32,000 nt of DNA, taken from Micrococcus luteus NCTC 2665 (GTDB lineage: Bacteria > Actinomycetota > Actinomycetes > Actinomycetales > Micrococcaceae). The notes beneath the pieces are model-generated. The model worked only from the letters and a program-made list of their open reading frames with translations. It did no database searches and was not told the DNA's origin. The DNA lies in contig NC_012803.1 in the NCBI RefSeq assembly GCF_000023205.1, positions 2,430,001 through 2,462,000 on the forward strand. The letters are read 5' to 3'. Position 1 is the stretch's first letter. Every line of letters starts with the position of its first letter. Shown here in pieces: positions 5,446 through 29,230 of the stretch. The position numbers were made by a program, and so were the translations under genes.

Positions 5446-5467
5446 GGGGGCGGTGGGCCCGCTCGCC

Positions 5468-5755
5468 TCAGCCGCTCTCCCGCAGCACCCGCGCCAGGAC
5501 CTCACGCGGGGAGGCCTCGCCCCGCCACTCCCCCGACGCGGCGCCCTCGAGGCTCACCAGCAGCGGTTCGACGTCGACGTGGGACTCCCCTCGCCCGGAG
5601 CGGCGGGTCAGGGTCCAGCCGTCCCCGTCCAGGCTGAGCCGGCACCCGGGGGCGAGGCCGGCGCGGAGTCGGGCCAGGGCGCGCCGCTTGAGCCCGGACG
5701 CGTTCAGCCGCGCCGTCGTCGGGGAGGCGACGGCGCGGCCGCAGGCTCCGCACAC
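5468..5755 (-). CDS. Hypothetical small protein (uncertain)
   Basis: 95-aa ORF with a GTG start 7 nt downstream of the deacetylase stop on the same strand. It has high GC3 and no recognisable motif. It could be a GC-driven artefact. Confidence 0.3.
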   Translation of the reverse strand: MCGACGRAVASPTTARLNASGLKRRALARLRAGLAPGCRLSLDGDGWTLTRRSGRGESHVDVEPLLVSLEGAASGEWRGEASPREVLARVLRESG

Positions 5756-5762
5756 CGCCGCG

Positions 5763-6650
5763 TCAGCCCTGGGTGCGCGGACGGCGCCGGGCGAAGTCCG
5801 TGGCGACGTCCTTCATGTAGGCGAATTCGACGCCGTCGTGGTCCTGGATGTGGTCGAGGAGCCGTTCCAGCATGAGCAGGTTCTGCGGGCGCCCGGACAC
5901 GTCCGGATGGATGGTGATGGGGAAGACGGCGTAGTCCATCTCCCGGTGCACCCAGTCGAACTGGTCCTTCCACAGCTGCTCGATGTCCCGCGGGGAGACG
6001 AAGCCGTGGCTGTTGGGGCTGGACTTGATGAACATCATGGGCGGCAGGTCGTCCAGGTACCAGGACGCGGGGATCTCGATGAGGTCGGTCTCCTCGCCGC
6101 GCTCGAGCGGCTTCATCCACGCGTGGGCGGAGTCGGCGTCGTAGTCGATCTTGGTCCAGGTGTCGCCCTTGCGCACGTAGTACGGGGTGTGGTCGTCGTG
6201 CATGAGCGAGTGGTCGTAGAGGAAGCCGCGGTCCAGCAGGATCTCGTTGGTCACCTTGGAGAACTCCCACCAGGGCGCCACGTAGCCCACCGGCTTGGTG
6301 CCGGAGCGCTTCTCGATGAGCTCGGTGCAGTAGTCGAGGATCTCGGTCTCCTGCTGGCGGGTCATGGCGATGGGGTTCTCGTGGGAGTAGCCGTGGACGC
6401 CGATCTCGTGTCCGGCCTCGACCACGGCGTCGAACTGCTCGGGGAACGTCTCGATCGAGTGCCCGGGCCAGAACCAGGAGACGGGCAGGTCGCGGCGCTG
6501 GAACAGCTGCAGCAGGCGGGGCACGCCCACTTCTCCGGCGAACATGCCGCGGGAGATGTCCCCGGGGGAGTCCTCGCCGCCGTAGGAGCCGAGCCAGCCG
6601 CCGACCGCGTCGACGTCGATGCCCACACTCACGTAGATCTTCTTGGTCAT
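5763..6650 (-). CDS. Polysaccharide deacetylase (carbohydrate esterase 4) family protein
   Basis: 295-aa ORF with a NodB-like core (GIDVDAV..., [20 protein letters not shown]). A GAGAGGAAGG Shine-Dalgarno precedes the ATG at 6650. It sits 20 nt downstream of the asparaginase gene, so the two are probably an operon. Confidence 0.85.
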
Positions 6651-6670
6651 GGTCCTGCCTTCCTCTCGGG

Positions 6671-7645
6671 TCAGCGCAGCCGTTCGAACTGCGCCCTGAA
6701 CTCTGGGGGGTCGGGGTGGGAGGCGGCGACGGTGGCCGCCAGGATCCGGGCCTGGAAGGGGGTCAGCTCCCCGGCGGGCACGGCGCCGGCCGCGAGGATG
6801 TCCGCTCCGCCGCCGTCGCCGTAGACGCCCAGGACCGGCCCGGCGAGCGTGCGGGTGGCGAGCACCACCGGCACGCCGCGGTCCGCCAGCTCCGCCACCG
6901 CCTCGGCGTGCCCGGGGCCCGCGTTGCCCAGGCCGGTGCCGGCCAGCACCACGACGTCGGCGCCCCGGTCCGCCGCCCAGGTCAGCGCGGCGGGGTCGGC
7001 GCCGGGGTGGGCGGTCACGAGGTCCACGCGCGTGCCGTCCAGTCCGGAGTCCGGGAGGTCGAGGGTGCCGGGGCGATGCGGGCGGGCGTGCAGGTGGAAC
7101 CCGTCCCCGTGCGTCGTGCCCACGAGCGTGCCGCCGGTGAACGGCTGGCTGGCCATCGTGTGCCCCTTGCGGGTGCCGCGTGCGGACAGCAGCGCGCCGT
7201 CGAAGGCGATGAGGACGCCGAGCCCGCGGGCGTCCGGTTGGGCGGCGGCGAGGACGGCCTGGCGCAGGTTGCGGGGGCCGTCGGTGTCCGGGTGGTCGGC
7301 GGCGCGCTGCGCGCCCGTGAACACCACGGGGGTGTCCGTGCCGTTCAGCAGGTCCGCGAGGAACGCGGTCTCCTCCATGGTGTCTGTGCCGTGCGTGACC
7401 ACGACGCCGTCGATGCCGGGGTCCGCCGCGCGCTCACGTGCGGTGCGGGCGATCGTGGCCAGCTCCGGCAGCCCGAGCCGGTAGCTGCCGACCGTCATCA
7501 CGTCCTCGCCGGTGATCTCGACGTCGGCGGTCGCGTCCATGCCCGCGAGAATTGCCTCCGCGGCGTCTCCGGCCGTGGCGCCGGAGCCCTCGCCGGAGCG
7601 CGAGGCGATCGTGCCGCCGGTGGCGAGGACGTGGACGCGGGTCAT
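6671..7645 (-). CDS. L-asparaginase
   Basis: ORF 6671..7756(-) with the catalytic motifs LATGGTIAS and [14 protein letters not shown]. The start is set at ATG 7645 ([11 protein letters not shown]) with GGAG upstream. Confidence 0.85.
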
Positions 7646-7769
7646 CGGGAGGCTCCTGGGCTCATGCGTGCCAGCGTGACAAGGGCGGGAGAGGTGGGTC
7701 AACGGATGGGGGTCTCCACCCTGCGCAACGACGCTGGACAAGTCAGACACCGACACCTACCCTGCGGTC

Positions 7770-8330
7770 ATGGGCATGTCAGAGAGCTTCGAGACATCCG
7801 TTCACGACTTCGCAAACACCTTCCTCGATTATCAAATCTACCTGGGGCATCTGGGTCAGACCCCGGAAGACGAGATCCTGATCTGCACCCCGGGGGAGGG
7901 CTGGTCGCTCGGGGCCCTGGAGGAACTCACTGAACACCTGCGGGATGACCAGCAGTGGTACACCGGCATAGAAGAGCAATACCGCAAGGGAGCAGGCGGC
8001 ATCGGTGCGGACGGGCCGGTCACTCTCTCCGTAGCTCTCGGCGTCACAAAAATGGTCCCGAGTGTTGCCTGGTTATTAAAGCAACTGCGGAGAGAAAACC
8101 CACCCCTGGACGACCGCCTTTCGGCGCGGAGACGAGCTGAAGCTGCCGTTCTCCGCCGATATGCCACAGATCGTCGGAAAGACCTGAAGTTGCGGTCAGA
8201 GGCTGAGAGACTTGACCATTGGGAGTTCTCATTCAGAGCTATTGACGGCGACTCATACACGGTTGAAGTGTACGGGATTGAGGGCAAGACCTCAGCCGAG
8301 CGGATCAGGTGGGAGTCCAGCGCGCCGTAG
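7770..8330 (+). CDS. Orphan hypothetical protein in a visibly lower-GC segment
   Basis: 186-aa ORF, the only long ORF on either strand here. Its A/T-ending codons (aaa, tta, gaa, aga) are atypical for this window. No recognisable domain and no obvious Shine-Dalgarno. Confidence 0.5.
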   Translation: MGMSESFETSVHDFANTFLDYQIYLGHLGQTPEDEILICTPGEGWSLGALEELTEHLRDDQQWYTGIEEQYRKGAGGIGADGPVTLSVALGVTKMVPSVAWLLKQLRRENPPLDDRLSARRRAEAAVLRRYATDRRKDLKLRSEAERLDHWEFSFRAIDGDSYTVEVYGIEGKTSAERIRWESSAP

Positions 8331-8423
8331 GCCGTGACCTGACGCGCCCCACCCCATTTTTACCGGCTCATGTAAAGGGCCAGCTCGTCAGAGACTGCGA
8401 GCCCTCGCAGGTTGCAAATCGAC

Positions 8424-8450
8424 GGGCCGCGGGGTCTCCCCCCGCGGCCC
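8424..8450. terminator. GC-rich hairpin between convergent genes (11-bp perfect stem, 5-nt loop)
   Basis: gggccgcgggg-tctcc-ccccgcggccc. It lies 22 nt past the stop of the MerR gene (minus strand) and 94 nt past the stop of the orphan gene (plus strand). The T-tract is weak, as is common in high-GC actinobacteria. Confidence 0.55.
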
Positions 8451-8471
8451 TTGGTGCATGTCACCAGGGCC

Positions 8472-9146
8472 TCACGCCAGCGGCCTGCACACCTCCGTCA
8501 CGAGATCCTCAGGCGCGGCCTGGTCCGGCGTCACGAGATAGCGGTTGAATACCTTGGAGGCCAGGGTCCCGTCCTGCCGGGCAGCCAGCCCCTCGGCCTC
8601 CATGCGCTGGACGATCAGGTCGTGTGCCTGCGAGATCTGCGTGTACGGGCCGACGGGCCTGATGCCTTGCTGCTGCAGGGCGGGCATGAGCCTCTCCCAC
8701 AGGCGGCCCTCGTCGGAGTAAGACGGGACGGTGCCGCGCAGGGCGACGACGGTCATGGCAGGGACGGCGGTGCGGTTCAGCTGGATGGTCATGGGGATCT
8801 CTCCTGGGGTGAGCATGCGGTCGATGAGGGAAAGCCGTTCCCGGGCCGCGTGCAGCTCCTCGACCAGGGTGCACCGCTGCAGGGCGAGCGCATCGGTCCA
8901 GGTCGAGGTGCCGCGGGCGGCGAGGAGGGCGGTGATGGCCGAGACGCCGAGGCCGACGTCGCGCAGGTTCCGGATGTCCGCGGCGTCCCGCAGCTGGGCG
9001 GGGGCGTAGCGGCGGTACCCGCTGTGCGCGTCGACGTGCTCCGGCACCAGGACGCCGTGGGCGTCGTAGTGGCGGAGCATCCGCACGGAGAGGCGGGAGA
9101 GCGAGCTGAACTCGCCGATCGTCATGAGGTCCGTGTGCGTGACCAT
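8472..9146 (-). CDS. MerR-family transcriptional regulator (second paralogue) with effector-binding C-terminal domain
   Basis: 224-aa ORF. MTIGEFSSLSRLSVRMLRHYDAHGVLVPEHVDAHSGYRRYAPAQL closely parallels the HTH of the regulator at 25..879. Confidence 0.85.
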   Translation of the reverse strand: MVTHTDLMTIGEFSSLSRLSVRMLRHYDAHGVLVPEHVDAHSGYRRYAPAQLRDAADIRNLRDVGLGVSAITALLAARGTSTWTDALALQRCTLVEELHAARERLSLIDRMLTPGEIPMTIQLNRTAVPAMTVVALRGTVPSYSDEGRLWERLMPALQQQGIRPVGPYTQISQAHDLIVQRMEAEGLAARQDGTLASKVFNRYLVTPDQAAPEDLVTEVCRPLA

Positions 9147-9152
9147 GGCAAC

Positions 9153-9183
9153 AGCGTGTGGGGTGACACGGTGGAAGGGTCAA
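9153..9183 (-). promoter_or_regulatory. Candidate MerR-type promoter: TTGACC -35, 19-nt spacer containing a cgtgt-N6-acacg palindrome, weak -10 (CACGCT) 6 nt from the ATG
   Basis: On the minus strand: TTGACC (9183-9178), a 19-nt spacer holding the palindrome at 9155-9170, then CACGCT. The ATG at 9146 follows almost immediately, which suggests a leaderless transcript. This is pattern recognition only. Confidence 0.25.
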
Positions 9184-9312
9184 GGCCGGGTCTAGATGTT
9201 GTGGGTCATGAGGTTCTTGGCATGACCAGCGGCCTGAGATGAGACGAGCGGGCCCCGTCCCGCGGGATGGAAGTTCCTCAACTACCACATCCACGGAGAA
9301 CAGAGCCCGCTC

Positions 9313-9610
9313 GTGACCCACGCTCACGCACCCCTGACCCCCACCGGGGAAGACCTGCGCCAGCCACCGCAGAAGATCACCGCCCGGGCCCCGGGACACA
9401 TGGTGCACCTGGACGTGAAGAAGATCGGCAAGATCCCCGACGGGGGCGGCCCGCGCGCCCACGGGCGGGGCACCGAGGCCGCACGGGCCGTACGGGCCGC
9501 CAAGCATGGACCCGGCGCGAAGGTGGGGTACACCTCCCTGCACTCGGCGATCGATGGGCACACCCGGCTGGCCTACACCGAAGCGTTGGAGGACGAGCGC
9601 CCCGCCGCCG
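9313..9610 (+). mobile_element. IS481-family transposase remnant (pseudogene, internally deleted and 3'-truncated)
   Basis: The translation THAHAPLTPTG ... GHMVHLDVKKIGKIPDGGG.RAHGRG ... VGYTSLHSAIDGHTRLAYTEALEDE matches the N-terminus and the start of the DDE core of IS481-type transposases. Most of the protein is missing, and I saw no terminal inverted repeats. Confidence 0.7.
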
Positions 9611-9791
9611 TGAACGCGGCGATCCCGATCAACGAGTGCGTCCCCTGCCGGCGTCCGCCGGCGAGAACCCGCCCGTGAGGGCCAACCAGGCTGCGGCACC
9701 GGTGGCGGCGTGCGATGCGCCCCTCCCCCAGCACGTCCCCCGGCACCCTCGCCTGGCCCCCGTCCCGGGTGCTCTCCTCTACGATGCAGTG

Positions 9792-10328
9792 ATGACCACC
9801 ACCCTCACCCTGCTGGACCCCGCCGGCCCGGACCGCGAGGCGCTCATCGCCCTCCTCACCGGGAACGCGTGGCCGTTCCACATGCGCCCGCACCCCAGCC
9901 GGGAGCAGGTCGACGCGGCCATCGACGACGGCGGCTGGGGCGACGAGGACAACCGCACCTTCTGGATCGAGCACGACGTGCACGGTCGCGTCGGCGTCGT
10001 GCGCCTCGAGGACCTCACCGACCCCACTCCCCTCTTCGACCTGCGCGTGGCCGAGCGGTTCCGCGGCCGAGGCCTCGGCGTCGAGATCCTCACCGCGCTG
10101 ACCCGTCACGTGTTCGAGACGATGCCGGACGTCGACCGGTTCGAGGGCCAGACCCGCGAGGACAACTCGCCGATGCTCCGCACCTTCCAGCGGGCCGGCT
10201 GGGTCAAGGAGGCCCACTACCGGCGGGGCTGGCCCGTGGAGGGTGGGGAGCCGGTGGCCTCCGTGGCCTATGCGATGCTCCGCCAGGACTGGGAGAACGG
10301 CACGACGACGCCCGTGCCGTGGGAGTGA
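9792..10328 (+). CDS. GNAT N-acetyltransferase, single domain. Corresponds to the N-terminal half of the tandem-GNAT gene at 22020..23162
   Basis: Part of ORF 9267..10328, with ATG at 9792 (MTTTLTLLDPAGPDREALIALLTGNAWPFH...). It has the acetyl-CoA motif RGRGLG. It is colinear with residues 1 to about 176 of the downstream paralogue up to TTTPVP, then ends in WE-stop at the junction. Confidence 0.8.
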   Translation: MTTTLTLLDPAGPDREALIALLTGNAWPFHMRPHPSREQVDAAIDDGGWGDEDNRTFWIEHDVHGRVGVVRLEDLTDPTPLFDLRVAERFRGRGLGVEILTALTRHVFETMPDVDRFEGQTREDNSPMLRTFQRAGWVKEAHYRRGWPVEGGEPVASVAYAMLRQDWENGTTTPVPWE

Positions 10329-10377
10329 GGCTGCCGGCGAACGACCTGGACTGACACCCACCTGGAACACTGGTCCC

Positions 10378-11841
10378 ATGTCCTCTCTCGCCCAGGCGCT
10401 CCGGGTCCACCGCCTCGTGCAGGACGACGTCGCCCTGCGCATGCTGCGCATGGACTCCCTGCCCCTCGTGGCCGGCGTCCTCGCCACCCATCTGGGCGCC
10501 CCGAACGCGAGCCTGCCCACGCACGAGCTGCATGACGCCCTCGACGCCGAGCTCGACACCCTGCGGGACCACCTGGACCTCTCGGGGCGGACAGCCAAGG
10601 CGTACTGCGAGGACTGGCGGCAGGCGGGACTGCTCGAGCGGCGCATCGCGGACGAGGCCCGCGAGGAGGTCTACGAGCTGACGCCGGCCGCGCGGCAGGG
10701 GCTCCGCGTCGTCGAGCAGCTCCTCGCACCGCGCGCGAGCGTCACCGAGTCCCGCCTCGTCTCCCTCCTCACCGCGCTCCATCAGCTGGCCCTCGAGACC
10801 GACCCGGACACCTCCCGCCGGCTGGCCGCCCTGCGGGCTGAGCAGCAGGCCCTGGCGGAGCGCATCGAGCGCATCGCCTCCGGTGAGGACACCGTGCTGG
10901 ATGAGCGACGCGCGGTGGAGCGGCTCGACGACGTGCTCACCCAGGCGGCCGACCTCCCCGTGGACTTCGCCCGGGTCCGGGCACGGTTCGGGGAGCTCAA
11001 TCAGGAGCTGCGGCGTCGCATCCTCACGGACGAGGGGCTTCCCGGCGACGTCCTGGAGAACGTGTTCCGCGGCGTGGACCTCATCGAGTCCTCGGACGAG
11101 GGCCAGACCTTCGCCGCGTTCTCCCGCATGGTGCGGGACCCCGCGATGTCCGCGGCGTTCCAGGCCGACATCCGGGCCGTCCTCGAGCGCGACTTCGCCG
11201 CGGATCTGCCGCCCGCCACGCGGCGTGCGGTGCGTGGCCTCGCACGCACCCTGCAGGACGGCTCGTCCGCCGTGCAGGACACGCTCACGGAGTTCGCCCG
11301 CGGCCTGCGCCGCTACGTCCTCTCCCAGGAGTACCACCGGGACCGCCGTCTGCACGTGGCCCTCCGGGAGGCGCTCAGCGCCGCCGCCGACGCCGCCCCG
11401 GCCACGCGTCCCTACCGGCAGACGGGGCGGGACCTGGACCTCACCGGCATGTCCCTGCGCTCCGTCGGGGAGATCTCCCTGCACGATCCCCGCGAGTTCG
11501 ACGTCGGTCCTGCCCTCGCGGACGCCGCCGTGGCCACGGTGGACATGGCCGCCCTGCGTGCGCTCGCCCGTGAGACGGAGATCGACTTCACGGAACTGCG
11601 CGAGAACGTGAACCGCACCCTCGAGGGGAAGGACGGCGCGCCGGCCTCGGCCACGGTCGCCGACGTCCTCGAGCTGCACCCCGCCACGCAGGGGGTGGCG
11701 AGCGTCGTCGGACTCCTCTCCCTCGCCGCGCAGCACGGCCAAGTGGACCCCGACGCCGTCGACCTCCTCCGCTGGCCCGCCGCCGCCGGGATGCACTCCG
11801 CGCACGTGATCCGCCACCGCTTCACCGAAAGGCTCCCCTGA
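10378..11841 (+). CDS. jetA: Wadjet JetA-like subunit (DUF3375-type, kleisin / MukF-like)
   Basis: 487 aa from ATG 10378. The N-terminal pattern LRVHRLVQDDVALRMLRMDSLPLVAGVL..., then ...YELTPAARQGLRVVEQLLAPRASVTESRLVSLL, matches my recollection of DUF3375. Its stop TGA shares one base with the ATG of the next gene (TGATG at 11839-11843). Confidence 0.85.
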   Translation: MSSLAQALRVHRLVQDDVALRMLRMDSLPLVAGVLATHLGAPNASLPTHELHDALDAELDTLRDHLDLSGRTAKAYCEDWRQAGLLERRIADEAREEVYELTPAARQGLRVVEQLLAPRASVTESRLVSLLTALHQLALETDPDTSRRLAALRAEQQALAERIERIASGEDTVLDERRAVERLDDVLTQAADLPVDFARVRARFGELNQELRRRILTDEGLPGDVLENVFRGVDLIESSDEGQTFAAFSRMVRDPAMSAAFQADIRAVLERDFAADLPPATRRAVRGLARTLQDGSSAVQDTLTEFARGLRRYVLSQEYHRDRRLHVALREALSAAADAAPATRPYRQTGRDLDLTGMSLRSVGEISLHDPREFDVGPALADAAVATVDMAALRALARETEIDFTELRENVNRTLEGKDGAPASATVADVLELHPATQGVASVVGLLSLAAQHGQVDPDAVDLLRWPAAAGMHSAHVIRHRFTERLP

Positions 11842-12521
11842 TGACCCCGGATTCCGACGACGCGGCGACTCCGCCCGCCACGGACGCTGCGCATACCGCC
11901 GGCGCCGCGCCCACGCTGTGGGAGGGCGATCTCGGCACGCTCGGAGAGCAGTCACGACGCGCACTGCTCGAACTCCTCCAGGGTCCGTACCTCTCCGGCC
12001 GCCGTCGCCCCCAGCTGTGGCAGGCCCTGATCGCCGACGAGGCCGCCATCCGCTCGCGGCTGCACGACCTGTTCCTCGACGTGGTGATCGACCAGCATGA
12101 CGAGTTCGCGTTCACACGCAGGGTCGCGACGGACGAGATCGCGGTGCCGGCCGCCCTGCGCTCCAAGTCCATGACGTTCCTGGACACCGCGATGCTCCTG
12201 GTCCTGCGCCAGCACCTGCTGACGGCGGCCGGCGAACGCCGCGTGATCGTGGGCCGGGACGAGGTCTTCGAGCAGCTGGCCGTGTACCAGCAGGGTGACG
12301 ACTCCGGGTGGGCGCGCCGACTGAACAGCTCGTGGACCAAGATGCTCAACAGCTTCTCCGTCCTCCAGCAGCTGGAGGACGACCGCGCCGAGGTCTCGCC
12401 GGTGCTCAAGGTGATGATCGGCCCGGAGGAGGCCCGGGCGTTCACCGAGCTGTACCGCGAGATCGCGGCGGGGCAGAACGACGACGACGCGGATGTCACG
12501 ACCCAGGAGGACGACCGATGA
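11841..12521 (+). CDS. jetB: Wadjet JetB-like subunit (DUF4194-type, KITE / MukE-like)
   Basis: 226 aa. RRALLELLQGPYLSGRRRPQLWQALIADEAAIRSRLHDLFLDVVIDQHDEFAFTRRV is the typical DUF4194 core, and the tail is acidic. It has an ATGA overlap with the next gene (12518-12521). Confidence 0.85.
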   Translation: MTPDSDDAATPPATDAAHTAGAAPTLWEGDLGTLGEQSRRALLELLQGPYLSGRRRPQLWQALIADEAAIRSRLHDLFLDVVIDQHDEFAFTRRVATDEIAVPAALRSKSMTFLDTAMLLVLRQHLLTAAGERRVIVGRDEVFEQLAVYQQGDDSGWARRLNSSWTKMLNSFSVLQQLEDDRAEVSPVLKVMIGPEEARAFTELYREIAAGQNDDDADVTTQEDDR

Positions 12522-15500
12522 CCGCACCTCATCCCGCGCAGGAGCAGGACACGTTCGACCTCGGCATCGAGTTCCCCGGCCGCGACACAGCGGACATCCG
12601 CCAGTGGCGCCTCGAGGAGGTCCAGATCGCCAACTGGGGCACCATGGACGGTCGCATCCACCGCTTCCCCGTCTCGCGCCGCGGGCACCTGATCACGGGG
12701 CCCTCGGGCTCGGGCAAGTCCTCGATCCTGGACGCGATCGCCGCCGTCCTCACCCCGGACAAGTGGCTGCGCTTCAACCAGGCCGCGCAGGGCGGGGCGG
12801 AGCGGACGGCCACGCGCGGCCTGGTCTCCTACGTGCGCGGCGCGTGGACCCGCCGGCAGGACGAGGACGAGGACCGCGTGGTCTCCGCGTACCTGCGCCC
12901 CGGGGCCACGTGGGCCGGCGTCGTCCTCACGTATCGCGACGGCGCGGGCGGCGTCGTCTCGCTGTGCCGACAGTTCTTCCTGCGCGGCACCGCGATGTCC
13001 CGGGCCGACATGAAGGACCTGTGCCTGCTCGAGCGCTCTGCCGTGGACCTGGCCGAACTGCAGACGCTGATCGACGACGGCATCAGGACCCGCCGTGTGC
13101 AGGCACGCTGGCCGCAGGCCGTCGTCACCACGAACGGCGGTCACGGCCCGTTCTACGCGCGCCTGCGCTCGGTGTTCGGCATCCGCGACGACGCCGCGCT
13201 GCACCTGCTGCACCGGACCCAGTCCGCCAAGGGGCTGGACTCGCTGGACCAGCTGTTCCGCAACCACATGCTGGAGCGGCCGCCGACGTTCGCCATGGCG
13301 GACCGCGCGGTCGAGGAGTTCGGCGCGCTGCGCACCGCGTACGAGCGCGTCGTGGACCTGCGCCGGCAGCGGGACCACCTGCTCGAGGTGCGCACGGCCG
13401 CACAGGAGTACGAGGCCGCCGTCGCCGAGGAGTCCAGGCTGCGCCGCCTCGAGGCCGCCATCCACCCCTACCACCAGGCCAGGTTCCTGGCGGAGATCCG
13501 GCGGGCGCTCGAGGAGGTGCAGGCCTCGCTCGCGGGCCTTCACGCGGCGCGCACCGAGGCCGACGCCGAGCAGGAGCGCGCGGAGCAGCGGCGCCAGCAC
13601 GCCCTGATCGCGCTCGCCAGCGTGGGCGGGGACCGCGTCGCGGAGCTCGGACGGCAGATCGACGCGGCACGGGAGCAGCACCGGGAGCGTCTGGCTCGGC
13701 GCGCCGTCCTGGCGAACCGCCTCCGCGCGGCGGACGTGGACGCGGAGCCGAGTACCGCCGTCGAGTTCGGCGAGCTCCAGGCGGCCATCGCCGCGGACCT
13801 GGAGGCGCCGCCCGAGCACCCGGGGCCGAGCCACGCCCAGCTGACCGAGCTCAGCCGCCTGCGGGAGGCGGTGCGCGAGCTCGAGGCGGACATCACGGCC
13901 CTGCGCCGCCGCGGCAGCACCGTGCCCCGGCACCTGGCGTCGGTCCGGGAGGACCTGGCGGAGCACCTGGGCGTGCGGACGGACGCGGTGCCCTTCGTGG
14001 CCGAGCTGCTCGACGTCGACGCGCGCCATCAGGAGTGGACCGGCGCGATCGAGCGCGTGCTCGCCCCGCTCTCGCTGACCCTGCTGATCCCCACGCGGCT
14101 GCTCTCGGCGGCCCGGACCTGGATCGACCGGCGCCACCTGGGCGTGCGACTGCGGTTCGAGGAAGTCAGGCCGACGCGGGCCGCCATCCGGCCCGCGAGC
14201 AGTCAGGACTCCCTCGTGCACAAGGTGACGGTGAAGCAGGGCGTGTTCCACGACTGGCTCCAGGCCCGCCTCTCCGAGCGGTTCGACCTGGCGTGTGTCA
14301 GTACGGCCGCCGAGCTCGCGCGGCACGAGCGGGCCGTGACGGCGGCCGGCCAGGTGAAGCTCTCCGCCACGCGGTACGAGAAGGACGACCGGTTCCGCGT
14401 GGATGACCGCTCCCGTTGGGTCCTCGGCGATCCGGCGGCGAAGCTGGAGGTGCTGGTCGAGGAGCGCGCCGCGCGCCAGGCGGCGTTCGCCGTCGTCGAG
14501 GGCGAGGTCCAGCGGGCCCAGGAGCGGGCCGATGCGGAGCGCCGGCGCCGCGCCACTCTGCGCAGCGTGCTCGAGACCCCGTGGACGGACGTGGACCACG
14601 CGGCACTGGAGCGCCGGATCGCGGACCTCCGGGCGCAGGCGGATGAGCTCAGCGCCGCCAGCGGCGATCTGCAGGCCGCCCGTCGCAGGGACGAGGCCGC
14701 CCAGCAGGACCTCCGGACCGCCCGCCAGGCCGCTGACGAGGCCCGACTGGCCGCCGCCCAGGCCGAGCGCCGCCGAGCCGAGCTCACCCAGGAGGCGCGA
14801 GAGCTCGAGGCGGAGAGCACCGGCCGCGAGCCGCTCCCAGCGGAGCTCACCGCCGAGCTCGACGCCCGCTTCCGGGCCGTGCGCCGCTCCGCCACGCGTT
14901 CCGCCCTGACGGAGAGCGCCGACCTCGTGCGCCGGGACGTGAGCGCGCTGGCCGAACGCGCGCGTTCCGCGGGTGCGCAGGCGGGGGAGCGCTGCACCGT
15001 GCTCACCACGCAGTTCTCCCGCCAGTGGGCGGTGGCGGCCGCGGACGCCTCGCCCGGCGTCGAGGACCGCGGCACGTACCTGGCGATCCTCGAGCGCATC
15101 GTGGGGCAGGGGCTGCCCGAGCACGAGGACCGGTTCCACCAGATCCTGCACGAGCGCTCCTCCGTGCTCTTCGGCGAGCTCCACCGGGCCATCAGCACCG
15201 CGCCCGGGGAGATCGAGGACCGCGTGGACCCCATCAACTCGGCGCTGCGGCGCTCCCCCTTCGACGAGGGGCGGTTCCTGCACCTGCGTGTGCGCGTGCG
15301 TCGTCCCGAGGCGGCGCAGCAGTTCCTCCGCGACCTCTCCGCCGTGGCGGAGAACGCGTGGGCCGACGACTCCCTCGACGATGCCGAGCGGCGCTACACC
15401 GCGCTGGCCGGGATCATGGACCGCCTCGCCTCCTCGGACCACGTGGACCGGGTGTGGCGGCAGCAGTGCCTGGACACGCGCGAGCACGTCACCTTCCTCG

Positions 15501-15874
15501 CGCAGGAGGTCGACGACGCCGGCGCCGTCCACGCCACGTACGACTCGGGCGCCGCGATGTCCGGCGGGCAGCAGCAGAAGCTCGTGGTCTTCTGCCTCGC
15601 CGCGGCTCTGCGCTACCAGCTGGCCGCCCCCGAGGACCCGCGCCCGCGGTACGGGACGGTGATCCTGGATGAGGCGTTCGACAAGGCCGACGCCCGCTAC
15701 ACGCGCATGGCCATGGACGTGTTCGTGGAGTTCGGCTTCCAGATGGTGCTCGCCACCCCTCAGAAGCTCCTGCAGACCATCGCCCCCTACGTCGGCGGCA
15801 TCACCACGGTGGAGAACCCGACGCGGCGGCTCACCCAGATCGCCGAGGTGATGTGGGAGGACGAGGAGAAGTGA
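12518..15874 (+). CDS. jetC: Wadjet JetC-like SMC/ABC-type ATPase (MukB / MksB-like)
   Basis: 1118 aa from ATG 12518.
- Walker A GPSGSGKSS at 12698-12724.
- About 700 aa of A/E/R/L-rich coiled-coil-like sequence.
- ABC signature SGGQ at 15560-15571.
- Walker B VILDE at 15659-15673.
This split-head plus long-arm layout is the SMC architecture. Confidence 0.9.
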   Translation: MTAPHPAQEQDTFDLGIEFPGRDTADIRQWRLEEVQIANWGTMDGRIHRFPVSRRGHLITGPSGSGKSSILDAIAAVLTPDKWLRFNQAAQGGAERTATRGLVSYVRGAWTRRQDEDEDRVVSAYLRPGATWAGVVLTYRDGAGGVVSLCRQFFLRGTAMSRADMKDLCLLERSAVDLAELQTLIDDGIRTRRVQARWPQAVVTTNGGHGPFYARLRSVFGIRDDAALHLLHRTQSAKGLDSLDQLFRNHMLERPPTFAMADRAVEEFGALRTAYERVVDLRRQRDHLLEVRTAAQEYEAAVAEESRLRRLEAAIHPYHQARFLAEIRRALEEVQASLAGLHAARTEADAEQERAEQRRQHALIALASVGGDRVAELGRQIDAAREQHRERLARRAVLANRLRAADVDAEPSTAVEFGELQAAIAADLEAPPEHPGPSHAQLTELSRLREAVRELEADITALRRRGSTVPRHLASVREDLAEHLGVRTDAVPFVAELLDVDARHQEWTGAIERVLAPLSLTLLIPTRLLSAARTWIDRRHLGVRLRFEEVRPTRAAIRPASSQDSLVHKVTVKQGVFHDWLQARLSERFDLACVSTAAELARHERAVTAAGQVKLSATRYEKDDRFRVDDRSRWVLGDPAAKLEVLVEERAARQAAFAVVEGEVQRAQERADAERRRRATLRSVLETPWTDVDHAALERRIADLRAQADELSAASGDLQAARRRDEAAQQDLRTARQAADEARLAAAQAERRRAELTQEARELEAESTGREPLPAELTAELDARFRAVRRSATRSALTESADLVRRDVSALAERARSAGAQAGERCTVLTTQFSRQWAVAAADASPGVEDRGTYLAILERIVGQGLPEHEDRFHQILHERSSVLFGELHRAISTAPGEIEDRVDPINSALRRSPFDEGRFLHLRVRVRRPEAAQQFLRDLSAVAENAWADDSLDDAERRYTALAGIMDRLASSDHVDRVWRQQCLDTREHVTFLAQEVDDAGAVHATYDSGAAMSGGQQQKLVVFCLAAALRYQLAAPEDPRPRYGTVILDEAFDKADARYTRMAMDVFVEFGFQMVLATPQKLLQTIAPYVGGITTVENPTRRLTQIAEVMWEDEEK

Positions 15875-17199
15875 GCGGGGCGACGGGACGGGGCCGGGAT
15901 GGGACGGGGGCCTGGCCGATGGTGGCTCCGGAGGCGGCGCGCGAGCTGGCGCGTCGGGCCCTGGCCCGGTCGCATCGCGGGTGGACCCTCGGCGAGGTGC
16001 CCACCCCCGCGTGGTCGCTGCCGCTCAAGCCGCCCACGGAGCAGGTCGTCCTCGCCGACCCGCAGGCCGCGCAGTCCTGGGCACGGGGCTGGCGGGCCGC
16101 CACCCTGCCCGCGGGCATCCGGGTGGAGTGGGCCGAGCGCAGCTGGCGCAGCGTCGGGCGGCAACAGGTGCCCGTACGCGTCCACGCGGTCACCCCGGAC
16201 GCGCTCGTGGCGTGGGTCGGCGGGCGCGAGGCGCGGGAGCAGCGGGTCTTCGCGGAGCGCGTCGCAGCGATGCGGCGGCTGGCCGAGGCGTGGGGCGGGT
16301 CGGGCCCGTCGGCTGCGGGTGGGGCGGGGTCAGCCCCGCAGACACAGGACGACGACGGCGAGGCCGCCGCCGACCCCCGCGAGCTGACACTCGCCGCGGC
16401 ACTGCGGCGCCACGCGCAGCGCCTCACCGACCTGAGCGAGCCGGACTTCCTGCGCGTGGTCGCGGTGCTGGAGTGGCTGCGGACCACGCCCGTGCAGGGC
16501 CTGCGGCCGCGTCAGCTGCCGATCCGCGGGGTCGACTCGAAGTGGTTCGGGGCGCACCGCACCCTGCTGGAAGCGCTGCACGCGCCACAGGAGGGCGGTC
16601 TCGGGATCGTCGACGCCCACCCGACGGTGCGCGTCCGCATCCTCGATCCGGCCCTGCGCCCGGAGGGACTGCGTGATCTGGAGGTCCCGCTGGAGCAGGC
16701 CGCCGCGTGGCCGATCGCGCCCGCGCGCGTGCTCGTGGTGGAGAACAGCGAGACGCTGCTGTGTCTGCCGGACGCCCCGGGCGCCGTCGCCGTGTGGGGC
16801 CGGGGCTTCGACACCGCGGCAACAGTGCTGCCGTGGCTGCGGGGCGCGGAGCTGCACTACTGGGGCGACCTGGACTCCCACGGCTTCGCGATCCTCCACC
16901 GGTACCGCACCCGCCTGCCGCAGCTGCGCAGCGTGCTCATGGACGTCCGGACCCTCGAGGCGTTCCGCGACCTGTGCGTCCCGGATCCCACGCCCTTCCG
17001 TGGCGCGCTGGCCACGCTGACCTCGGACGAGGCGCGCGCGCTGGAGCGGCTGCGTGCCGAGGGCGACGTGCGGCTCGAGCAGGAGCGGGTCGGGTGGGAC
17101 CACGCGCTCTCGGCGCTGGACGCGCACTTCGTCTTCTGCGACGCGGGCGATCGTGCCGCCGGTGGCGAGGACGCGGACGGTCGGCGGATCGCGTCATGA
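15871..17199 (+). CDS. jetD: Wadjet JetD-like subunit (DUF3322 N-terminal domain plus DUF2220 Toprim nuclease domain, MksG-like)
   Basis: The C-terminal Toprim signature is VLVVENSETLL (Glu codon 16741-16743) and YWGDLDSHGFAILHRYR (DxD at 16867-16875). The start is either GTG 15871 (GTGA overlap with the jetC stop, which fits the coupling pattern of this operon) or ATG 15919. Confidence 0.85.
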   Translation: MSGATGRGRDGTGAWPMVAPEAARELARRALARSHRGWTLGEVPTPAWSLPLKPPTEQVVLADPQAAQSWARGWRAATLPAGIRVEWAERSWRSVGRQQVPVRVHAVTPDALVAWVGGREAREQRVFAERVAAMRRLAEAWGGSGPSAAGGAGSAPQTQDDDGEAAADPRELTLAAALRRHAQRLTDLSEPDFLRVVAVLEWLRTTPVQGLRPRQLPIRGVDSKWFGAHRTLLEALHAPQEGGLGIVDAHPTVRVRILDPALRPEGLRDLEVPLEQAAAWPIAPARVLVVENSETLLCLPDAPGAVAVWGRGFDTAATVLPWLRGAELHYWGDLDSHGFAILHRYRTRLPQLRSVLMDVRTLEAFRDLCVPDPTPFRGALATLTSDEARALERLRAEGDVRLEQERVGWDHALSALDAHFVFCDAGDRAAGGEDADGRRIAS

Positions 17200-17964
17200 C
17201 GGGGCCCCCGCTCCCAGCAGCCCGGCCACCCCGCGGGCCGCGGGCGGGGCCAGGTGCACGGCGCGCACGACGGTGAACGCGGTCAGCACGGAGACGAACG
17301 CCCATTCCCGCCAGGACCCGGTGGTGCCGAGCAGGGGGAGCCGGAACCGCCCGCCCGGCTGCCAGCACCAGAGGCGGCAGGGCGGGTCCGGCCGGAGGGG
17401 CCAGAGCAGGGCCACGCCGTTGTTGGTGAGGGCGTCGCCGAGGATGTGCACGGTCACCCCGATCGCCACGGACGCGGGGATCCACCACAGCCCGTCCCCC
17501 AGGACGGTGCCCAGCACCGCGGCGACGACGCCCAGCGCCCACGCGGACACCCGCCCGCCCCGCGGCAGCAGGCGCAGCGCCGTGGCGGCGACCGCCACGA
17601 GGAACGCGGCGATGACGCCCTGACCGACGCCGTAGGTGAGCCCGGCCACCGGCACCTGAATGGCCGCGGCGGCGACCGACAGCGCGGTGAACACGGCGAT
17701 CCCCGCCAGCGAGTGCGTGCCCCTCCGGTGCCCGCCGGCCACCCTGCGGATGCCGCGCGCCATCAGCTCGGTCACGGGCGGCAGGGCGTGGGCGATGGTG
17801 GCGCGCGGGTGGTCCCAGTCGCTGATCAGAGCGGCCCCGGCGGTGGTGAGCGCGCCGAGCAGCTGCAGCTCCGGGGGCAGGTGCAGGGACGCGATCGGCG
17901 ACGCCGGGCCGGTCAGCGCCAGCCAGGCCGCGGCGCCGGTCGCCGCGTGGGACGGACCCATCAT
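17194..17964 (-). CDS. YdjM-like membrane-bound metal-dependent hydrolase (DUF457 family)
   Basis: ORF 17194..18147(-). The start is set at the ATGATG at 17964, with a GAGAGGA Shine-Dalgarno. It has multiple TM segments and the HRRGTHSL motif typical of the YdjM family. Its 3' end overlaps the jetD 3' end by 6 nt, and the two genes are convergent. Confidence 0.75.
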   Translation of the reverse strand: MMGPSHAATGAAAWLALTGPASPIASLHLPPELQLLGALTTAGAALISDWDHPRATIAHALPPVTELMARGIRRVAGGHRRGTHSLAGIAVFTALSVAAAAIQVPVAGLTYGVGQGVIAAFLVAVAATALRLLPRGGRVSAWALGVVAAVLGTVLGDGLWWIPASVAIGVTVHILGDALTNNGVALLWPLRPDPPCRLWCWQPGGRFRLPLLGTTGSWREWAFVSVLTAFTVVRAVHLAPPAARGVAGLLGAGAPS

Positions 17965-18143
17965 GGGTGGGGTCCTCTCGTTCGCAGGACCGGGCCGCGT
18001 CACCGCGCCTGCGAGGGCCGGCGGGCGGCCCGCGGGGAAGGAAGAGGACCAGGGTGGCAGGCGGGGCGGACACGGTAAGGAGGCCGCCGCGGCCGGAGCG
18101 GGTCGAGGCGGCTGCCCGGCCGGGGGGGCGGCCGCCCGGCCCC

Positions 18144-20344: not shown

Positions 20345-21565
20345 TCAACCCCGCCGGCCCGCACGCGCGGCGAACTCGTCCAGACAGGCGAGCACCTCGG
20401 TGGCCAGCCACACCCGGTTCCGACGCTGAGCGGACGCGGCCTGCAGAGCGCCGGCCTCGACAAGCTGGTCCACGGCCCGCTGGGCGGCCGGGCGCGAGAC
20501 ACCCAGCGCCTGGGCCAGATGGTCCACGGTCACGGCCGGTTGCGCGATGATCACCGCGAGCGCCCGCCAGACCGCCGCGTCCCGCCGGGCGGTGAGCCGC
20601 TCGCGCCAGCCGGTCAGGGCCTCGTCCAGGTCCGCGACGAGCTCTCGGCCGTTGCCGACGGCGGCCAGGGCGGCCTGTGCGAAGCGGCGCACGATGGGCG
20701 CGGGGTCGCCGTCGCGGTAGGCGGTGAGGGCGTCGAAGTATCCGGCCGTGTCCGTGAGGAGTCCCGCGGAGAGGGGCACCCCCATGCGGGTGATCGCGCC
20801 GGCCCGGTGCAACACGGCGTGCACGAGGACCCGCCCGGTGCGGCCGTTGCCGTCCGCGAACGGGTGGATGGTCTCGAACTGGGCGTGCGCGATGGCGGCC
20901 TGCACGAGGGCGGGCACGTCCGTGCGTCGCAGATAGGCGAAGAGATCGTCCATCCCGGCACGCAGGCGCTCCGGGTGGGGCGGGACGAACTGCGCCGTGT
21001 GCGGCGTGGGCGCCCCGCCCCCGATCCACCCCTGCACGTCGCGGTAGGCGCCCGGCCGGGCATGCTCCTGACCGTCCATGAGGGCACGATGGGCGGCCAG
21101 CAGGGCGGGCTCTTCCAGGTCGGCGGCCAGCCGGGAAGCAGCGCCCATGGCCCTCACGTTCGCCGCCACGAGCGCTGTGTTCGGGCGGGTGCGTTCGCCG
21201 AGAGTCGCCAGGGCGAGGGCTCGCGCGCCCGCCGTGATGTGCTCGATCTGTGAGGAGGACGCGGACTCAGTGCGCAGGAGCACCGCGTCGATCGGGGCGA
21301 TCTCTCCCGTGAGCCCCGGGAGGGCGTGGCTGATCTCGGCGTCGAAGCGCACGACGGCGGCCGTCGCCTCCTCGACCTCGGTCGCCAGATCAGAGGGCAG
21401 GTCGAGCCCGAGTCGGGCGATACGGGCCGGGAGCGCGGCTCGATATGGGCCTGCTGCACGCACGCGAGCGCTGCGGGAGCGCAGCCCGGCGTCATCCGGG
21501 CCCGCGGCCCAGGGGCGCTCTTCCCAGCCGACGGCCCACGGGGTCGGGCGCGGATCGTTGCTCAT
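20345..21565 (-). CDS. Fic-family protein (probable AMPylase/adenylyltransferase) with C-terminal winged-helix domain
   Basis: 406 aa.
- Canonical Fic motif HPFADGNGRTGR.
- N-terminal inhibitory-helix-like motif SSSQIEH.
- C-terminal HTH-like LAQALGVSRPAAQRAVDQLVEAGAL.
- AAGGTGG Shine-Dalgarno before the ATG at 21565. Confidence 0.9.
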   Translation of the reverse strand: MSNDPRPTPWAVGWEERPWAAGPDDAGLRSRSARVRAAGPYRAALPARIARLGLDLPSDLATEVEEATAAVVRFDAEISHALPGLTGEIAPIDAVLLRTESASSSQIEHITAGARALALATLGERTRPNTALVAANVRAMGAASRLAADLEEPALLAAHRALMDGQEHARPGAYRDVQGWIGGGAPTPHTAQFVPPHPERLRAGMDDLFAYLRRTDVPALVQAAIAHAQFETIHPFADGNGRTGRVLVHAVLHRAGAITRMGVPLSAGLLTDTAGYFDALTAYRDGDPAPIVRRFAQAALAAVGNGRELVADLDEALTGWRERLTARRDAAVWRALAVIIAQPAVTVDHLAQALGVSRPAAQRAVDQLVEAGALQAASAQRRNRVWLATEVLACLDEFAARAGRRG

Positions 21566-28441: not shown

Positions 28442-28460
28442 GCCGTCCGGTCCGTAGGTC

Positions 28461-28500
28461 GGTCCGGCCGGCCCCGGGCCGGTCCGGGCCGGTCCGGGCC
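28461..28500. repeat. GC-rich short tandem repeat (ggtccgggcc x2 perfect, preceded by a degenerate longer copy), possibly a glpK terminator structure
   Basis: Read directly from the sequence, starting 20 nt after the glpK stop: ggtccggccggccccgggcc ggtccgggcc ggtccgggcc. The unit is self-complementary around cccggg. Confidence 0.4.
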
Positions 28501-28632
28501 CTCCAGAAGGACCCCGAGCAGCACTACCCCCTCGTCGGCCGCCTGCGCGCGGAGCGGGGTGGATTCGGTGCCGTTGCCATCGGCGCAGTGGCCAGGCCCG
28601 AGGTGCCCGGCTGCTCCGACGTCAAGCTGTCC

Positions 28633-29214: not shown

Positions 29215-29230
29215 GGACAACGACGTCCGT

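What the first reader, a model, noticed from the sequence alone, without database searches (positions are those of the whole stretch)
10378..17199. Translationally coupled four-gene SMC-kleisin-KITE-Toprim operon: a Wadjet-type (JetABCD / MksBEFG-like) plasmid-restriction system
Seen in the sequence:
- Four same-strand genes are fused by overlapping stop/start codons: TGATG at 11839-11843, ATGA at 12518-12521 and GTGA at 15871-15874. This implies stoichiometric co-expression of a complex.
- Gene 3 (1118 aa) has a split ABC/SMC head: Walker A GPSGSGKSS at 12698-12724, signature SGGQ at 15560-15571 and Walker B VILDE at 15659-15673. About 700 residues of A/E/R/L-rich, coiled-coil-like sequence separate the two head halves.
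- Genes 1 and 2 carry sequence patterns I recognise as DUF3375 (MukF-like kleisin) and DUF4194 (MukE-like KITE).
- Gene 4 ends in a Toprim fold signature: ENSET Glu at 16741-16743 and GDLDSHG at 16864-16884.

Established knowledge: this exact gene order and domain set defines type I Wadjet. The equivalent system is MksBEFG in Corynebacterium and EptABCD in Mycobacterium. It is an SMC complex that senses small circular DNA by loop extrusion and cleaves it through the JetD/MksG Toprim nuclease.

Inference: all four genes look intact, so the host probably restricts plasmid uptake or maintenance. This is the most notable system in the window.
Basis: partly seen in the sequence, partly recalled or inferred. 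Interest (0 to 1): 0.92.

Follow-up and report, generated by a model that had tools for sequence, protein, structure and literature searches.

The report
Ordinary type I Wadjet plasmid-defence operon
The region holds a complete, intact and entirely typical four-gene Wadjet (JetABCD) system, which in other bacteria cuts up small circular plasmids; it lies in the chromosome of Micrococcus luteus and public databases already label it as Wadjet, so it is real but ordinary.

Summary
Window 10378-17199 (+) encodes JetA, JetB, JetC and JetD.

- **Family matches:** JetA matches DUF3375 (E 3e-136), JetB matches DUF4194 (3e-38), JetC matches PADLOC JetC1 (1274 bits), and JetD matches DUF3322 plus JetD_C (4e-46).
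- **Subtype:** every best PADLOC model is subtype 1.
- **Solved relatives:** all four proteins match solved Wadjet structures.
- **JetD fold:** a confident JetD model (pLDDT 91.8) is closest to C. glutamicum MksG and to P. aeruginosa and E. coli JetD.

Corrections:
- The jetC/jetD "GTGA overlap" may not be the real start. The family's conserved first Met is ATG 15919, which RefSeq uses.
- The span between the JetC head halves is about 400 residues of coiled coil plus a hinge of about 155 residues, not about 700 residues of coiled coil.

The window is 100% identical to M. luteus NCTC 2665. RefSeq already names the JetD product a Wadjet protein, and a published survey lists type I Wadjet in M. 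luteus.

New context:
- The operon sits in an ~11.7 kb segment that two sister species lack.
- A decayed IS481 transposase lies next to it.
- The operon is almost clonal across the M. luteus complex, although its flanks diverge.

Novelty is low. Function is inferred, not tested.

The parts
10378..11841 (+). jetA (487 aa), the kleisin-like subunit (DUF3375)
   Evidence: Pfam DUF3375 E 2.9e-136, covering profile positions 1-463 of 474. PADLOC JetA1 4.1e-174, with residues 1-485 matching model positions 1-481 of 487, which supports ATG 10378 as the start. PDB JetA 8dk1 3e-17. The exact sequence is ACS31753.1 / UniProt C5C7R5.
11841..12521 (+). jetB (226 aa), the KITE / MukE-like subunit (DUF4194). 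Its ATG overlaps the jetA stop codon (TGATG).
   Evidence: Pfam DUF4194 3.2e-38, with a weak MksE match. PADLOC JetB1 2.1e-78. PDB JetB 8as8_C 3.6e-4 over residues 26-217.
12518..15874 (+). jetC (1118 aa), the SMC/MukB-like ABC ATPase. Its ATG overlaps the jetB stop codon (ATGA).
   Evidence: PADLOC JetC1 1274 bits over residues 22-1117. Full-length match to solved JetC 8dk2 (1.2e-76) and 8as8 (4.7e-66). AAA_29 and SbcC_Walker_B domains. Arm/hinge/arm layout from composition.
12698..12724 (+). JetC Walker A motif GPSGSGKSS (Lys codon 12716-12718)
   Evidence: Read directly from the sequence. It lies inside the AAA_29 match.
15560..15571 (+). JetC ABC signature motif SGGQ
   Evidence: It aligns with SGGE of P. 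aeruginosa JetC.
15659..15673 (+). JetC Walker B motif VILDE (Glu1052 at 15671-15673)
   Evidence: The Glu aligns with the E-to-Q position of the deposited P. aeruginosa JetC (8dk1, 8dk2).
15919..17199 (+). jetD (426 aa from the conserved Met; an alternative GTG start at 15871 gives 442 aa and a GTGA overlap with jetC). It has a CAP-like N-terminal domain (DUF3322) and a Toprim nuclease domain (JetD_C).
   Evidence: Pfam JetD_C 4.3e-46 and DUF3322 2.3e-32. PADLOC JetD1 2.7e-110. PDB MksG 8b7f 1.6e-42. AlphaFold model with pLDDT 91.8. Best Foldseek matches are 8b7f_A (4.5e-28), 7til (1e-17) and 8q72_M. Start-codon analysis.
16741..16752 (+). JetD Toprim motif E-N-S-E. Glu at 16741-16743 corresponds to MksG E236 and E. 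coli JetD E248. A second invariant Glu lies at 16750-16752.
   Evidence: Both Glu residues are invariant in 119 of 119 aligned homologues. Alignment to MksG and to the JetD(E248A) chain. MksG E236A loses nuclease activity (PMC10123090).
16867..16875 (+). JetD Toprim DxD motif (D-L-D), corresponding to MksG D279/D281
   Evidence: Invariant in 119 of 119 homologues. MksG D279A is inactive (PMC10123090).
17077..17085 (+). JetD E-Q-E motif, corresponding to MksG E349/E351, the proposed alternative catalytic glutamates
   Evidence: Invariant in 119 of 119 homologues. Aligned to MksG 'IEQER'. Role taken from PMC10123090.
5480..17225 (.). Variable chromosomal segment of ~11.7 kb that carries the operon. 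It also holds a small ORF, a polysaccharide deacetylase, an asparaginase, a 186-aa ORF, a MerR regulator, an IS481 remnant and a GNAT gene. It is absent from two sister species.
   Evidence: In M. lacusdianchii (L007) and M. antarcticus (L008) the AMP-ligase gene (ends at 5445) lies 0.2-0.8 kb from ydjM (alignment resumes at 17200-17225). Gene content.
9313..9600 (+). Decayed IS481-family transposase fragment, ~780 nt upstream of jetA
   Evidence: megablast gives 77-83% identity to the IS481 transposase genes of four Micrococcus plasmid records. tblastn gives 81% amino-acid identity to residues 123-208 of the 335-aa pLMV7 transposase. The N-terminal 12 residues are fused to residue ~124, and the C-terminal third is missing.
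9792..10328 (+). GNAT acetyltransferase gene, 49 nt upstream of jetA. It may be co-transcribed, and it is probably not part of the system.
   Evidence: Pfam Acetyltransf_3 and Acetyltransf_1. It is truncated by a ~150-nt deletion in strains L003 and L004, which keep an intact operon. It is absent upstream of jetA in Citricoccus and Brevibacterium.

Best explanation
This is a complete type I Wadjet system (jetA-jetB-jetC-jetD, also called MksBEFG or EptABCD) in the chromosome of Micrococcus luteus NCTC 2665.

The mechanism below comes from studied homologues and is inferred for this copy.
1. JetC, an SMC-type ABC ATPase, dimerises. The kleisin JetA closes it into a ring and the KITE protein JetB is bound.
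2. Two such motors are joined through JetA.
3. The complex loads on DNA and extrudes loops using ATP.
4. On a small circular DNA (below about 50-100 kb) extrusion runs to completion and the motors stall against each other. This releases the autoinhibited JetD dimer.
5. The JetD Toprim site (Glu plus DxD holding Mg2+ or Mn2+) cuts the DNA, and the plasmid is lost.
6. Linear DNA and the large chromosome are spared.

Shown here: the identity, completeness, subtype and intact catalytic motifs of all four proteins; the JetD fold; and the genomic setting. Inferred: expression, complex formation and plasmid restriction in M. luteus.
For: - **Profile matches:** Pfam and PADLOC matches for all four proteins are far above threshold and full length, and every best model is subtype 1.
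- **Solved relatives:** sequence matches to solved JetA, JetB, JetC, JetD and MksG.
- **JetD fold:** the model has pLDDT 91.8, and its best structural matches are MksG and JetD, followed by small Toprim proteins.
- **ATPase motifs:** Walker A, signature and Walker B are present. The Walker B Glu aligns with the E-to-Q site of P. aeruginosa JetC.
- **Nuclease residues:** the Toprim Glu, DxD and EQE residues are invariant in 119 homologues and align with MksG E236, D279 and E349/E351. Mutating E236 or D279 abolishes cleavage.
- **Intactness:** no internal stops or indels in five other assemblies.
- **Gene order:** the same order is found in Citricoccus and Brevibacterium.
- **Mechanism and size/shape selectivity:** taken from PMC10586767 and from the abstracts of 10.1101/2022.10.04.510915, 10.1101/2023.11.03.565488 and PMC10889018.
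Against: - Nothing here tests function.
- The simple scans found no promoter or terminator consensus, and jetA has no visible Shine-Dalgarno sequence, so expression is unproven.
- The jetD start is ambiguous.
- The Tyr proposed as nucleophile in MksG (Y258) is Phe here. If that Tyr were essential in actinobacterial enzymes, this would matter. However, proteobacterial JetD also lacks it, and MksG Y258A keeps residual activity.
Confidence: 0.9

Rival explanations
1. The genes form a chromosome-organising MksBEF-type condensin, like mycobacterial MksB, which folds or positions the host chromosome rather than defending against plasmids.
For: JetABC is homologous to MukBEF/MksBEF condensins. There are weak matches to MksE and to SMC equivalog models. 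A chromosomal MksB condensin exists in mycobacteria (PMC11329512 abstract).
Against: - A full-length JetD/MksG Toprim nuclease with all catalytic residues is encoded directly after jetC. That gene is what separates Wadjet from plain MksBEF.
- Every best PADLOC model is a Wadjet subtype 1 model.
- Two sister species with otherwise syntenic flanks lack the operon, which is unlike a housekeeping function.
Confidence: 0.04
2. The operon is intact in sequence but silent or non-functional in this host. It would be a recently acquired passenger that has not yet decayed.
For: - No promoter or terminator consensus was found, and jetA has no Shine-Dalgarno sequence.
- The block is almost identical between strains at synonymous sites too. 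The few substitutions therefore say little about purifying selection: jetA shows 1-3 non-synonymous and 0 synonymous differences.
- A decayed IS element lies next to it.
Against: - All four genes are full length, with no stops or frameshifts, in six assemblies and in members named as several Micrococcus species.
- All catalytic residues are intact.
- The sigma-70 consensus scan is not suited to Actinomycetota, so its negative result is weak.
Confidence: 0.06

Closest known systems
MksBEFG of Corynebacterium glutamicum (MksG structure 8b7f)
   Same: - Same four components, also in an actinobacterium.
- MksG is the closest solved relative of the JetD here (phmmer 1.6e-42; Foldseek 4.5e-28, 29% identity).
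- The metal-binding residues E236 and D279 and the E349/E351 pair are conserved.
   Different: - MksG Tyr258, proposed as a possible nucleophile and said to be conserved in actinobacterial homologues (PMC10123090), is Phe here. It is also Phe in 23 of 119 close homologues.
- The linker between the JetD domains carries a low-confidence Gly/Ala/Asp-rich insertion of ~25 residues (pLDDT 52-77).
[quoted passage not shown]
   Same: - Full-length collinear match of JetC (E 1e-76 and 5e-66), and matches of JetA, JetB and JetD.
- Same ATPase and Toprim motifs.
- Same gene order.
   Different: - Distant in sequence: the JetD Foldseek alignments show 22-24% identity, and JetB matches only at E 4e-4.
- I did not see the 'IFDR' JetB N-terminal motif, which is reported to contact JetD in P. 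aeruginosa (PMC10586767), when reading the JetB N-terminus. I did not test this further.
EptABCD of Mycobacterium smegmatis
   Same: The reviews treat it as the same four-gene Wadjet/MksBEFG family (and abstracts).
   Different: No sequence comparison was made here.
Wadjet types II and III
   Same: The same four functional roles.
   Different: The JetC2 and JetD3 models score only marginally (E 3e-6 and 2e-5), against E=0 and 2.7e-110 for the subtype 1 models. This locus is not type II or III.

Membership tests
Wadjet type I (JetABCD) | A four-gene cassette jetA-jetB-jetC-jetD, adjacent and on one strand | tested here: met
   ORFs at 10378-11841, 11841-12521, 12518-15874 and 15871/15919-17199, all on the + strand. 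Public gene calls give the same layout.
Wadjet type I (JetABCD) | JetA is a DUF3375 kleisin-like protein | tested here: met
   Pfam 2.9e-136. PADLOC JetA1 4.1e-174. PDB JetA 3e-17.
Wadjet type I (JetABCD) | JetB is a DUF4194 (MukE-like KITE) protein | tested here: met
   Pfam 3.2e-38. PADLOC JetB1 2.1e-78. PDB JetB 3.6e-4. Its fold was not modelled.
Wadjet type I (JetABCD) | JetC is an SMC/MukB-like ABC ATPase with a split head (Walker A, signature, Walker B), coiled-coil arms and a hinge | tested here: met
   The motifs were read directly. Full-length match to solved JetC. The C-terminal head motifs align. The arm/hinge layout rests on composition only.
Wadjet type I (JetABCD) | JetD has a DUF3322 (CAP-like) N-terminal domain and a Toprim C-terminal domain with a conserved Glu and DxD | tested here: met
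   Pfam. Invariant E, DxD and EQE residues. Model with pLDDT 91.8, closest to MksG and JetD.
Wadjet type I (JetABCD) | Subtype 1 rather than subtype 2 or 3 | tested here: met
   Every best PADLOC model is JetA1, JetB1, JetC1 or JetD1. JetC2 and JetD3 score only marginally.
Wadjet type I (JetABCD) | ATP-dependent cleavage of small circular DNA, and reduced plasmid transformation or maintenance | not testable with these tools
   This needs genetics or biochemistry in M. luteus or a heterologous host.
Wadjet type I (JetABCD) | Dimer-of-dimers assembly through the JetA N-terminus, and autoinhibited JetD dimer | not tested
   No complex was modelled.
MksBEFG (C. glutamicum subtype) | The Tyr equivalent to MksG Y258 is conserved in actinobacterial homologues | tested here: not met
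   This position is Phe (nt 16807-16809). Among 119 homologues it is Tyr in 95, Phe in 23 and His in 1. The statement about Y258 is from PMC10123090. It is a proposed feature, not an established defining one.
MukBEF/MksBEF condensin (no nuclease) | A three-gene SMC-kleisin-KITE set without a Toprim partner | tested here: not met
   A full-length jetD follows jetC.

The most novel reading that the evidence does not exclude
The Wadjet block, from about window 8650 to 17225 (with different recombination end-points in different strains), entered the Micrococcus luteus species complex recently. It then swept through the complex by homologous recombination, which would fit this naturally transformable organism. 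That would explain why the operon is ~99.9% identical, even at synonymous sites, in genomes whose adjacent genes differ by 2-18%.

A further speculation is that its presence favours linear or very large plasmids in Micrococcus. Large linear plasmids are known in the genus, and one (pLMA1) transfers by conjugation into an M. luteus strain (trpE16 derivatives) whose Wadjet status I did not check (PMC11707576).
Probability: 0.35. Interest if true: 0.35.

Novelty: already known. Interest (0 to 1): 0.12.

Why it matters
Practically, an intact Wadjet in M. luteus could explain difficulty in establishing small circular replicating vectors. M. luteus is the actinobacterial model for natural transformation, and the genetics I read relies on integrating, non-replicating plasmids (PMC8467076). 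A jetABCD deletion strain might therefore be a better cloning host.

Scientifically, the locus adds nothing to what is known about how Wadjet works. The population pattern is a small but testable case of a defence system spreading by recombination. The operon is near-clonal, sits in a segment that sister species lack, and lies next to an IS remnant and a variably present SoFic gene.

Tried and rejected
- **Antisense ORFs.** Long ORFs overlap the operon on the other strand (for example 11822-15532, 1236 aa). I rejected them as high-GC artefacts, because codon-position GC marks the + strand frames as coding.
- **NCBIfam.** It gave no specific model for JetA, JetB or JetD, and only sub-threshold SMC/RecF matches for JetC. 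This is uninformative rather than contradictory.
- **Genome-collection scan.** I spent the one scan on the flanking LrgB protein. It returned only two useful Micrococcus loci, and the rest were unrelated Proteobacteria. These two were enough to show the presence/absence polymorphism.
- **Island boundaries.** There is no tRNA gene. There is no direct or inverted repeat longer than 10 nt at the two boundaries. No intact integrase was found. The way the segment arrived is unknown.
- **Regulatory and RNA scans.** The promoter/terminator scan found nothing, and no Rfam family matched.
- **Plasmid-borne copy.** The plasmid collection holds no near-identical copy of the operon (megablast); only the IS481 fragment matched.
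- **jetD start from strain variation.** The 48 nt between GTG 15871 and ATG 15919 are invariant in all six assemblies, so the test has no power.
- **Selection on the operon.** dN/dS is not usable, with only 0-3 substitutions per gene.
- **Structure predictions not run.** I did not model JetA, JetB, JetC or the complex, because the sequence evidence was already decisive.


Full report
**Observation**

Four ORFs lie head to tail on the + strand at 10378-11841, 11841-12521, 12518-15874 and 15871 (or 15919)-17199. Their third-codon-position GC is 0.91-0.92 and second-position GC is 0.45-0.57. This is the signature of real genes in a 72% GC genome, so the long antisense ORFs over the same DNA are artefacts.

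These are TGATG, ATGA, GTGA, GPSGSGKSS, SGGQ, VILDE, the Glu codon at 16741 and GDLDSHG.

Two details need correction.

1. **The jetD start is uncertain.**
   - In an alignment of 118 homologues, 70 start at the Met that aligns with ATG 15919. Sequence upstream of that Met is not conserved in the rest. NCBI calls the 426-aa product from 15919.
   - On the other side, GTG 15871 overlaps the jetC stop codon and follows a GGAGG/GAGGAG stretch. Other gene callers give 442 aa. In Citricoccus zhacaiensis and a Brevibacterium the annotated jetD overlaps jetC by 4 nt, a few codons before the conserved Met.
   - The 48 nt in question are invariant among six assemblies, so strain comparison cannot decide.
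   - Either way the gap is at most 44 nt, and co-transcription is likely.
2. **The JetC arms are shorter than stated.** The region between the JetC head halves is not about 700 residues of coiled coil. There are two A/E/R/L/Q-rich arms (about 270-480 and 640-830) around a hinge of about 155 residues.

**Identity**

- **Pfam:** DUF3375 (2.9e-136) for gene 1 and DUF4194 (3.2e-38) for gene 2. Gene 3 has AAA_29 (3.1e-23) and SbcC_Walker_B (2e-24). Gene 4 has DUF3322 (2.3e-32) and JetD_C (4.3e-46).
- **PADLOC:** full-length best matches to JetA1 (4.1e-174), JetB1 (2.1e-78), JetC1 (1274 bits) and JetD1 (2.7e-110). Subtype 2 and 3 models reach only 3e-6 and 2e-5, so this is type I.
- **NCBIfam:** no specific model matched.
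- **Solved structures:** JetC matches P. aeruginosa JetC (8dk2, 1.2e-76) and E. coli JetC (8as8, 4.7e-66) end to end. JetA matches 8dk1 (3.3e-17) and JetB matches 8as8_C (3.6e-4). JetD matches C. glutamicum MksG (8b7f, 1.6e-42), P. aeruginosa JetD (7til, 3.9e-14) and E. coli JetD (8q72, 1.1e-9).
- **JetD fold:** an AlphaFold model built on 53 sequences has mean pLDDT 91.8. Its best Foldseek matches in the PDB are MksG (4.5e-28), P. aeruginosa JetD (1e-17) and the E. coli JetD Toprim domain (TM 0.79 on the target, rmsd 2.6 Å), followed by small Toprim proteins.

**Catalytic residues**

- **JetC:** the Walker B Glu (15671-15673) aligns with the position that is Gln in the deposited P. aeruginosa JetC E-to-Q protein, and SGGQ aligns with SGGE.
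- **JetD:** the following are invariant in 119 of 119 aligned homologues: Glu at 16741, Glu at 16750, Asp at 16867 and 16873, and the E-Q-E at 17077-17085.
- These JetD residues align with MksG E236, D279/D281 and E349/E351. E236A and D279A abolish MksG nuclease activity (PMC10123090).
- **One difference:** MksG Y258 was proposed as a possible nucleophile and described as conserved in actinobacterial homologues. It is Phe here (16807-16809), and also Phe in 23 of the 119 homologues. Proteobacterial JetD also lacks that Tyr, and MksG Y258A keeps residual activity. I therefore read this as evidence against an essential Tyr, not against activity.

**Source and prior knowledge**

- The window is 100% identical over 20,681 nt to LS483396.1.
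- The exact proteins are ACS31753, ACS31755 and ACS31756, or UniProt C5C7R5, C5C7R7 and C5C7R8, of Micrococcus luteus NCTC 2665.
- Old annotations call JetA a 'methyl-accepting chemotaxis protein'. Current RefSeq names the JetD product 'Wadjet anti-phage system protein JetD domain-containing protein'.
- A survey of poplar endophytes lists 'wadjet type I' (and SoFic) among the defence systems of M. luteus s9 (PMC10740426).
- I found no experimental work on Wadjet in Micrococcus.

**Mechanism (established for homologues, inferred here)**

According to the review PMC10586767 and the abstracts seen:
- JetABC is an SMC motor that forms a dimer of dimers.
- Cleavage is independent of sequence and of supercoiling.
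- Circles above about 50-100 kb and linear replicons escape.
- The favoured model is complete loop extrusion of a small circle, which stalls the motors and activates the autoinhibited JetD dimer.

All the sequence features this model needs are present in the M. luteus proteins. Nothing here shows expression. The consensus scans found no promoter or terminator, and jetA lacks a visible Shine-Dalgarno sequence and sits 49 nt after a GNAT gene.

**Genomic setting (beyond the finding)**

- **Neighbours.** They are ordinary chromosomal genes: MerR regulators, a sulphur transporter with TusA, an alcohol dehydrogenase, an acyl-CoA ligase, an asparaginase, YdjM, LrgAB, GntR and the glycerol genes glpD, glpF and glpK.
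- **Missing in sister species.** In M. lacusdianchii and M. antarcticus the flanks are 93-96% identical, but window ~5446-17200/17225 is missing (the segment itself is ~5480-17225). There the acyl-CoA ligase gene lies 0.2-0.8 kb from ydjM.
- **How it arrived is unknown.** No tRNA, flanking repeat or intact integrase marks the segment.
- **IS remnant.** A decayed IS481 transposase fragment lies at 9313-9600. It is 81% identical in protein to residues 123-208 of the pLMV7 transposase.
- **Not on plasmids.** No near-identical copy of the operon is found in the plasmid collection (megablast).

**Population pattern**

- Five other assemblies have only 3-11 nucleotide differences across ~7.2 kb (10014-17225). 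Synonymous divergence there is 0-0.003. The adjacent ydjM shows 40-72 differences per 400 nt.
- The switch from low to high divergence falls at ~17225 in two strains and ~17600 in three others.
- Those loci were picked by identical JetB, so I checked independently using 90%-identity cluster members:
  - JetC is 99.7-99.9% identical in members named M. luteus, M. endophyticus and M. aloeverae.
  - JetA is 99.4-99.6% identical and JetD 99.5-100%.
  - YdjM is 93.8-96.9%, LrgB 97.5-99.2% and the acyl-CoA ligase 96.4-98.2%.
- The next JetD cluster in the large database is only 70% identical.
- Synonymous sites are equally invariant, so protein-level constraint cannot explain this. Recent shared ancestry of the block, through transfer or recombination, is the simplest reading. 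It is not proven.

**Verdict**

The interpretation as type I Wadjet is supported at every test available here, and the defence function is a sound inference. The system is a standard member of a well-studied family, in a reference genome, and databases already label it. Interest is therefore low. The island and near-clonal pattern, and the Phe at the MksG Y258 position, are minor additions.

Noticed in passing
window 20345-21565 (-): A 406-aa Fic/DOC plus MarR-type HTH protein matches the PADLOC SoFic defence model over nearly its full length (E 1.6e-70). It lies 3.1 kb downstream of jetD. Strains L003-L005 have a GIY-YIG_2 gene (plus OGG in L003 and L005) at this position instead. A Brevibacterium Wadjet locus also has a SoFic-like gene just downstream.
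   Followed up: partly
window 9313-9600 (+): This is a decayed IS481-family transposase fragment. It has an internal deletion between two LTP(T/A)G repeats and has lost the C-terminal third. Its nearest relatives are transposases on Micrococcus plasmids, including linear pLMV7.
   Followed up: yes
window 10014-17225 versus 17225-18000; loci L001, L003-L006: The Wadjet block is almost clonal between strains and named species (0.05-0.15% nucleotide divergence, with synonymous sites included). The adjacent ydjM gene differs by 10-18%. The break-point differs between strains, at ~17225 or ~17600.
   Followed up: partly
window 17194-17199: The convergent genes jetD (+) and ydjM (-) have abutting stop codons (TCA|TGA) with no intergenic base, so there is no room for a terminator. 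The last ~10 codons of ydjM differ from those in the sister species that lack the segment. The segment boundary therefore lies inside the 3' end of ydjM.
   Followed up: partly
window 16807-16809 (JetD Phe): The position equivalent to MksG Tyr258, a proposed nucleophile, is Phe in M. luteus and in 23 of 119 close actinobacterial homologues. It is Tyr in 95.
   Followed up: partly
L007 14764-17097 (M. lacusdianchii): This species carries a second, diverged copy (85-87% identity) of the acyl-CoA ligase / ydjM gene pair, next to the first. In both copies the two genes are adjacent, which suggests that adjacency is the ancestral state and that the Wadjet-bearing segment is an insertion.
   Followed up: no
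window 5446-5480; L001, L005, L006 2803-3525; L008 11694-12416: A 240-aa DUF6226 gene follows the acyl-CoA ligase gene in three M. luteus assemblies. A 240-aa ORF at the same position in M. antarcticus is probably the same gene, but I did not scan it. The gene is missing from this window, which adds to the variability at the left edge of the segment.
   Followed up: no
window 7770-8330 (+), 5468-5764 (-), 28375-29343 (+), 29521-30162 (-), 30848-31405 (+): These ORFs have no Pfam match, and the first two, the only ones I also scanned with PADLOC, have none there either. The 186-aa ORF at 7770-8330 lies in a lower-GC stretch (0.66) and is absent from strains L003 and L004. The window after 28.4 kb also drops to 0.66-0.70 GC and includes a DUF6308 gene at 30192-30851.
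   Followed up: no
window 10378-11841 (JetA): Older GenBank and UniProt records name this protein 'methyl-accepting chemotaxis protein' or 'chemotaxis protein'. This is a mis-annotation of a DUF3375 kleisin.
   Followed up: yes
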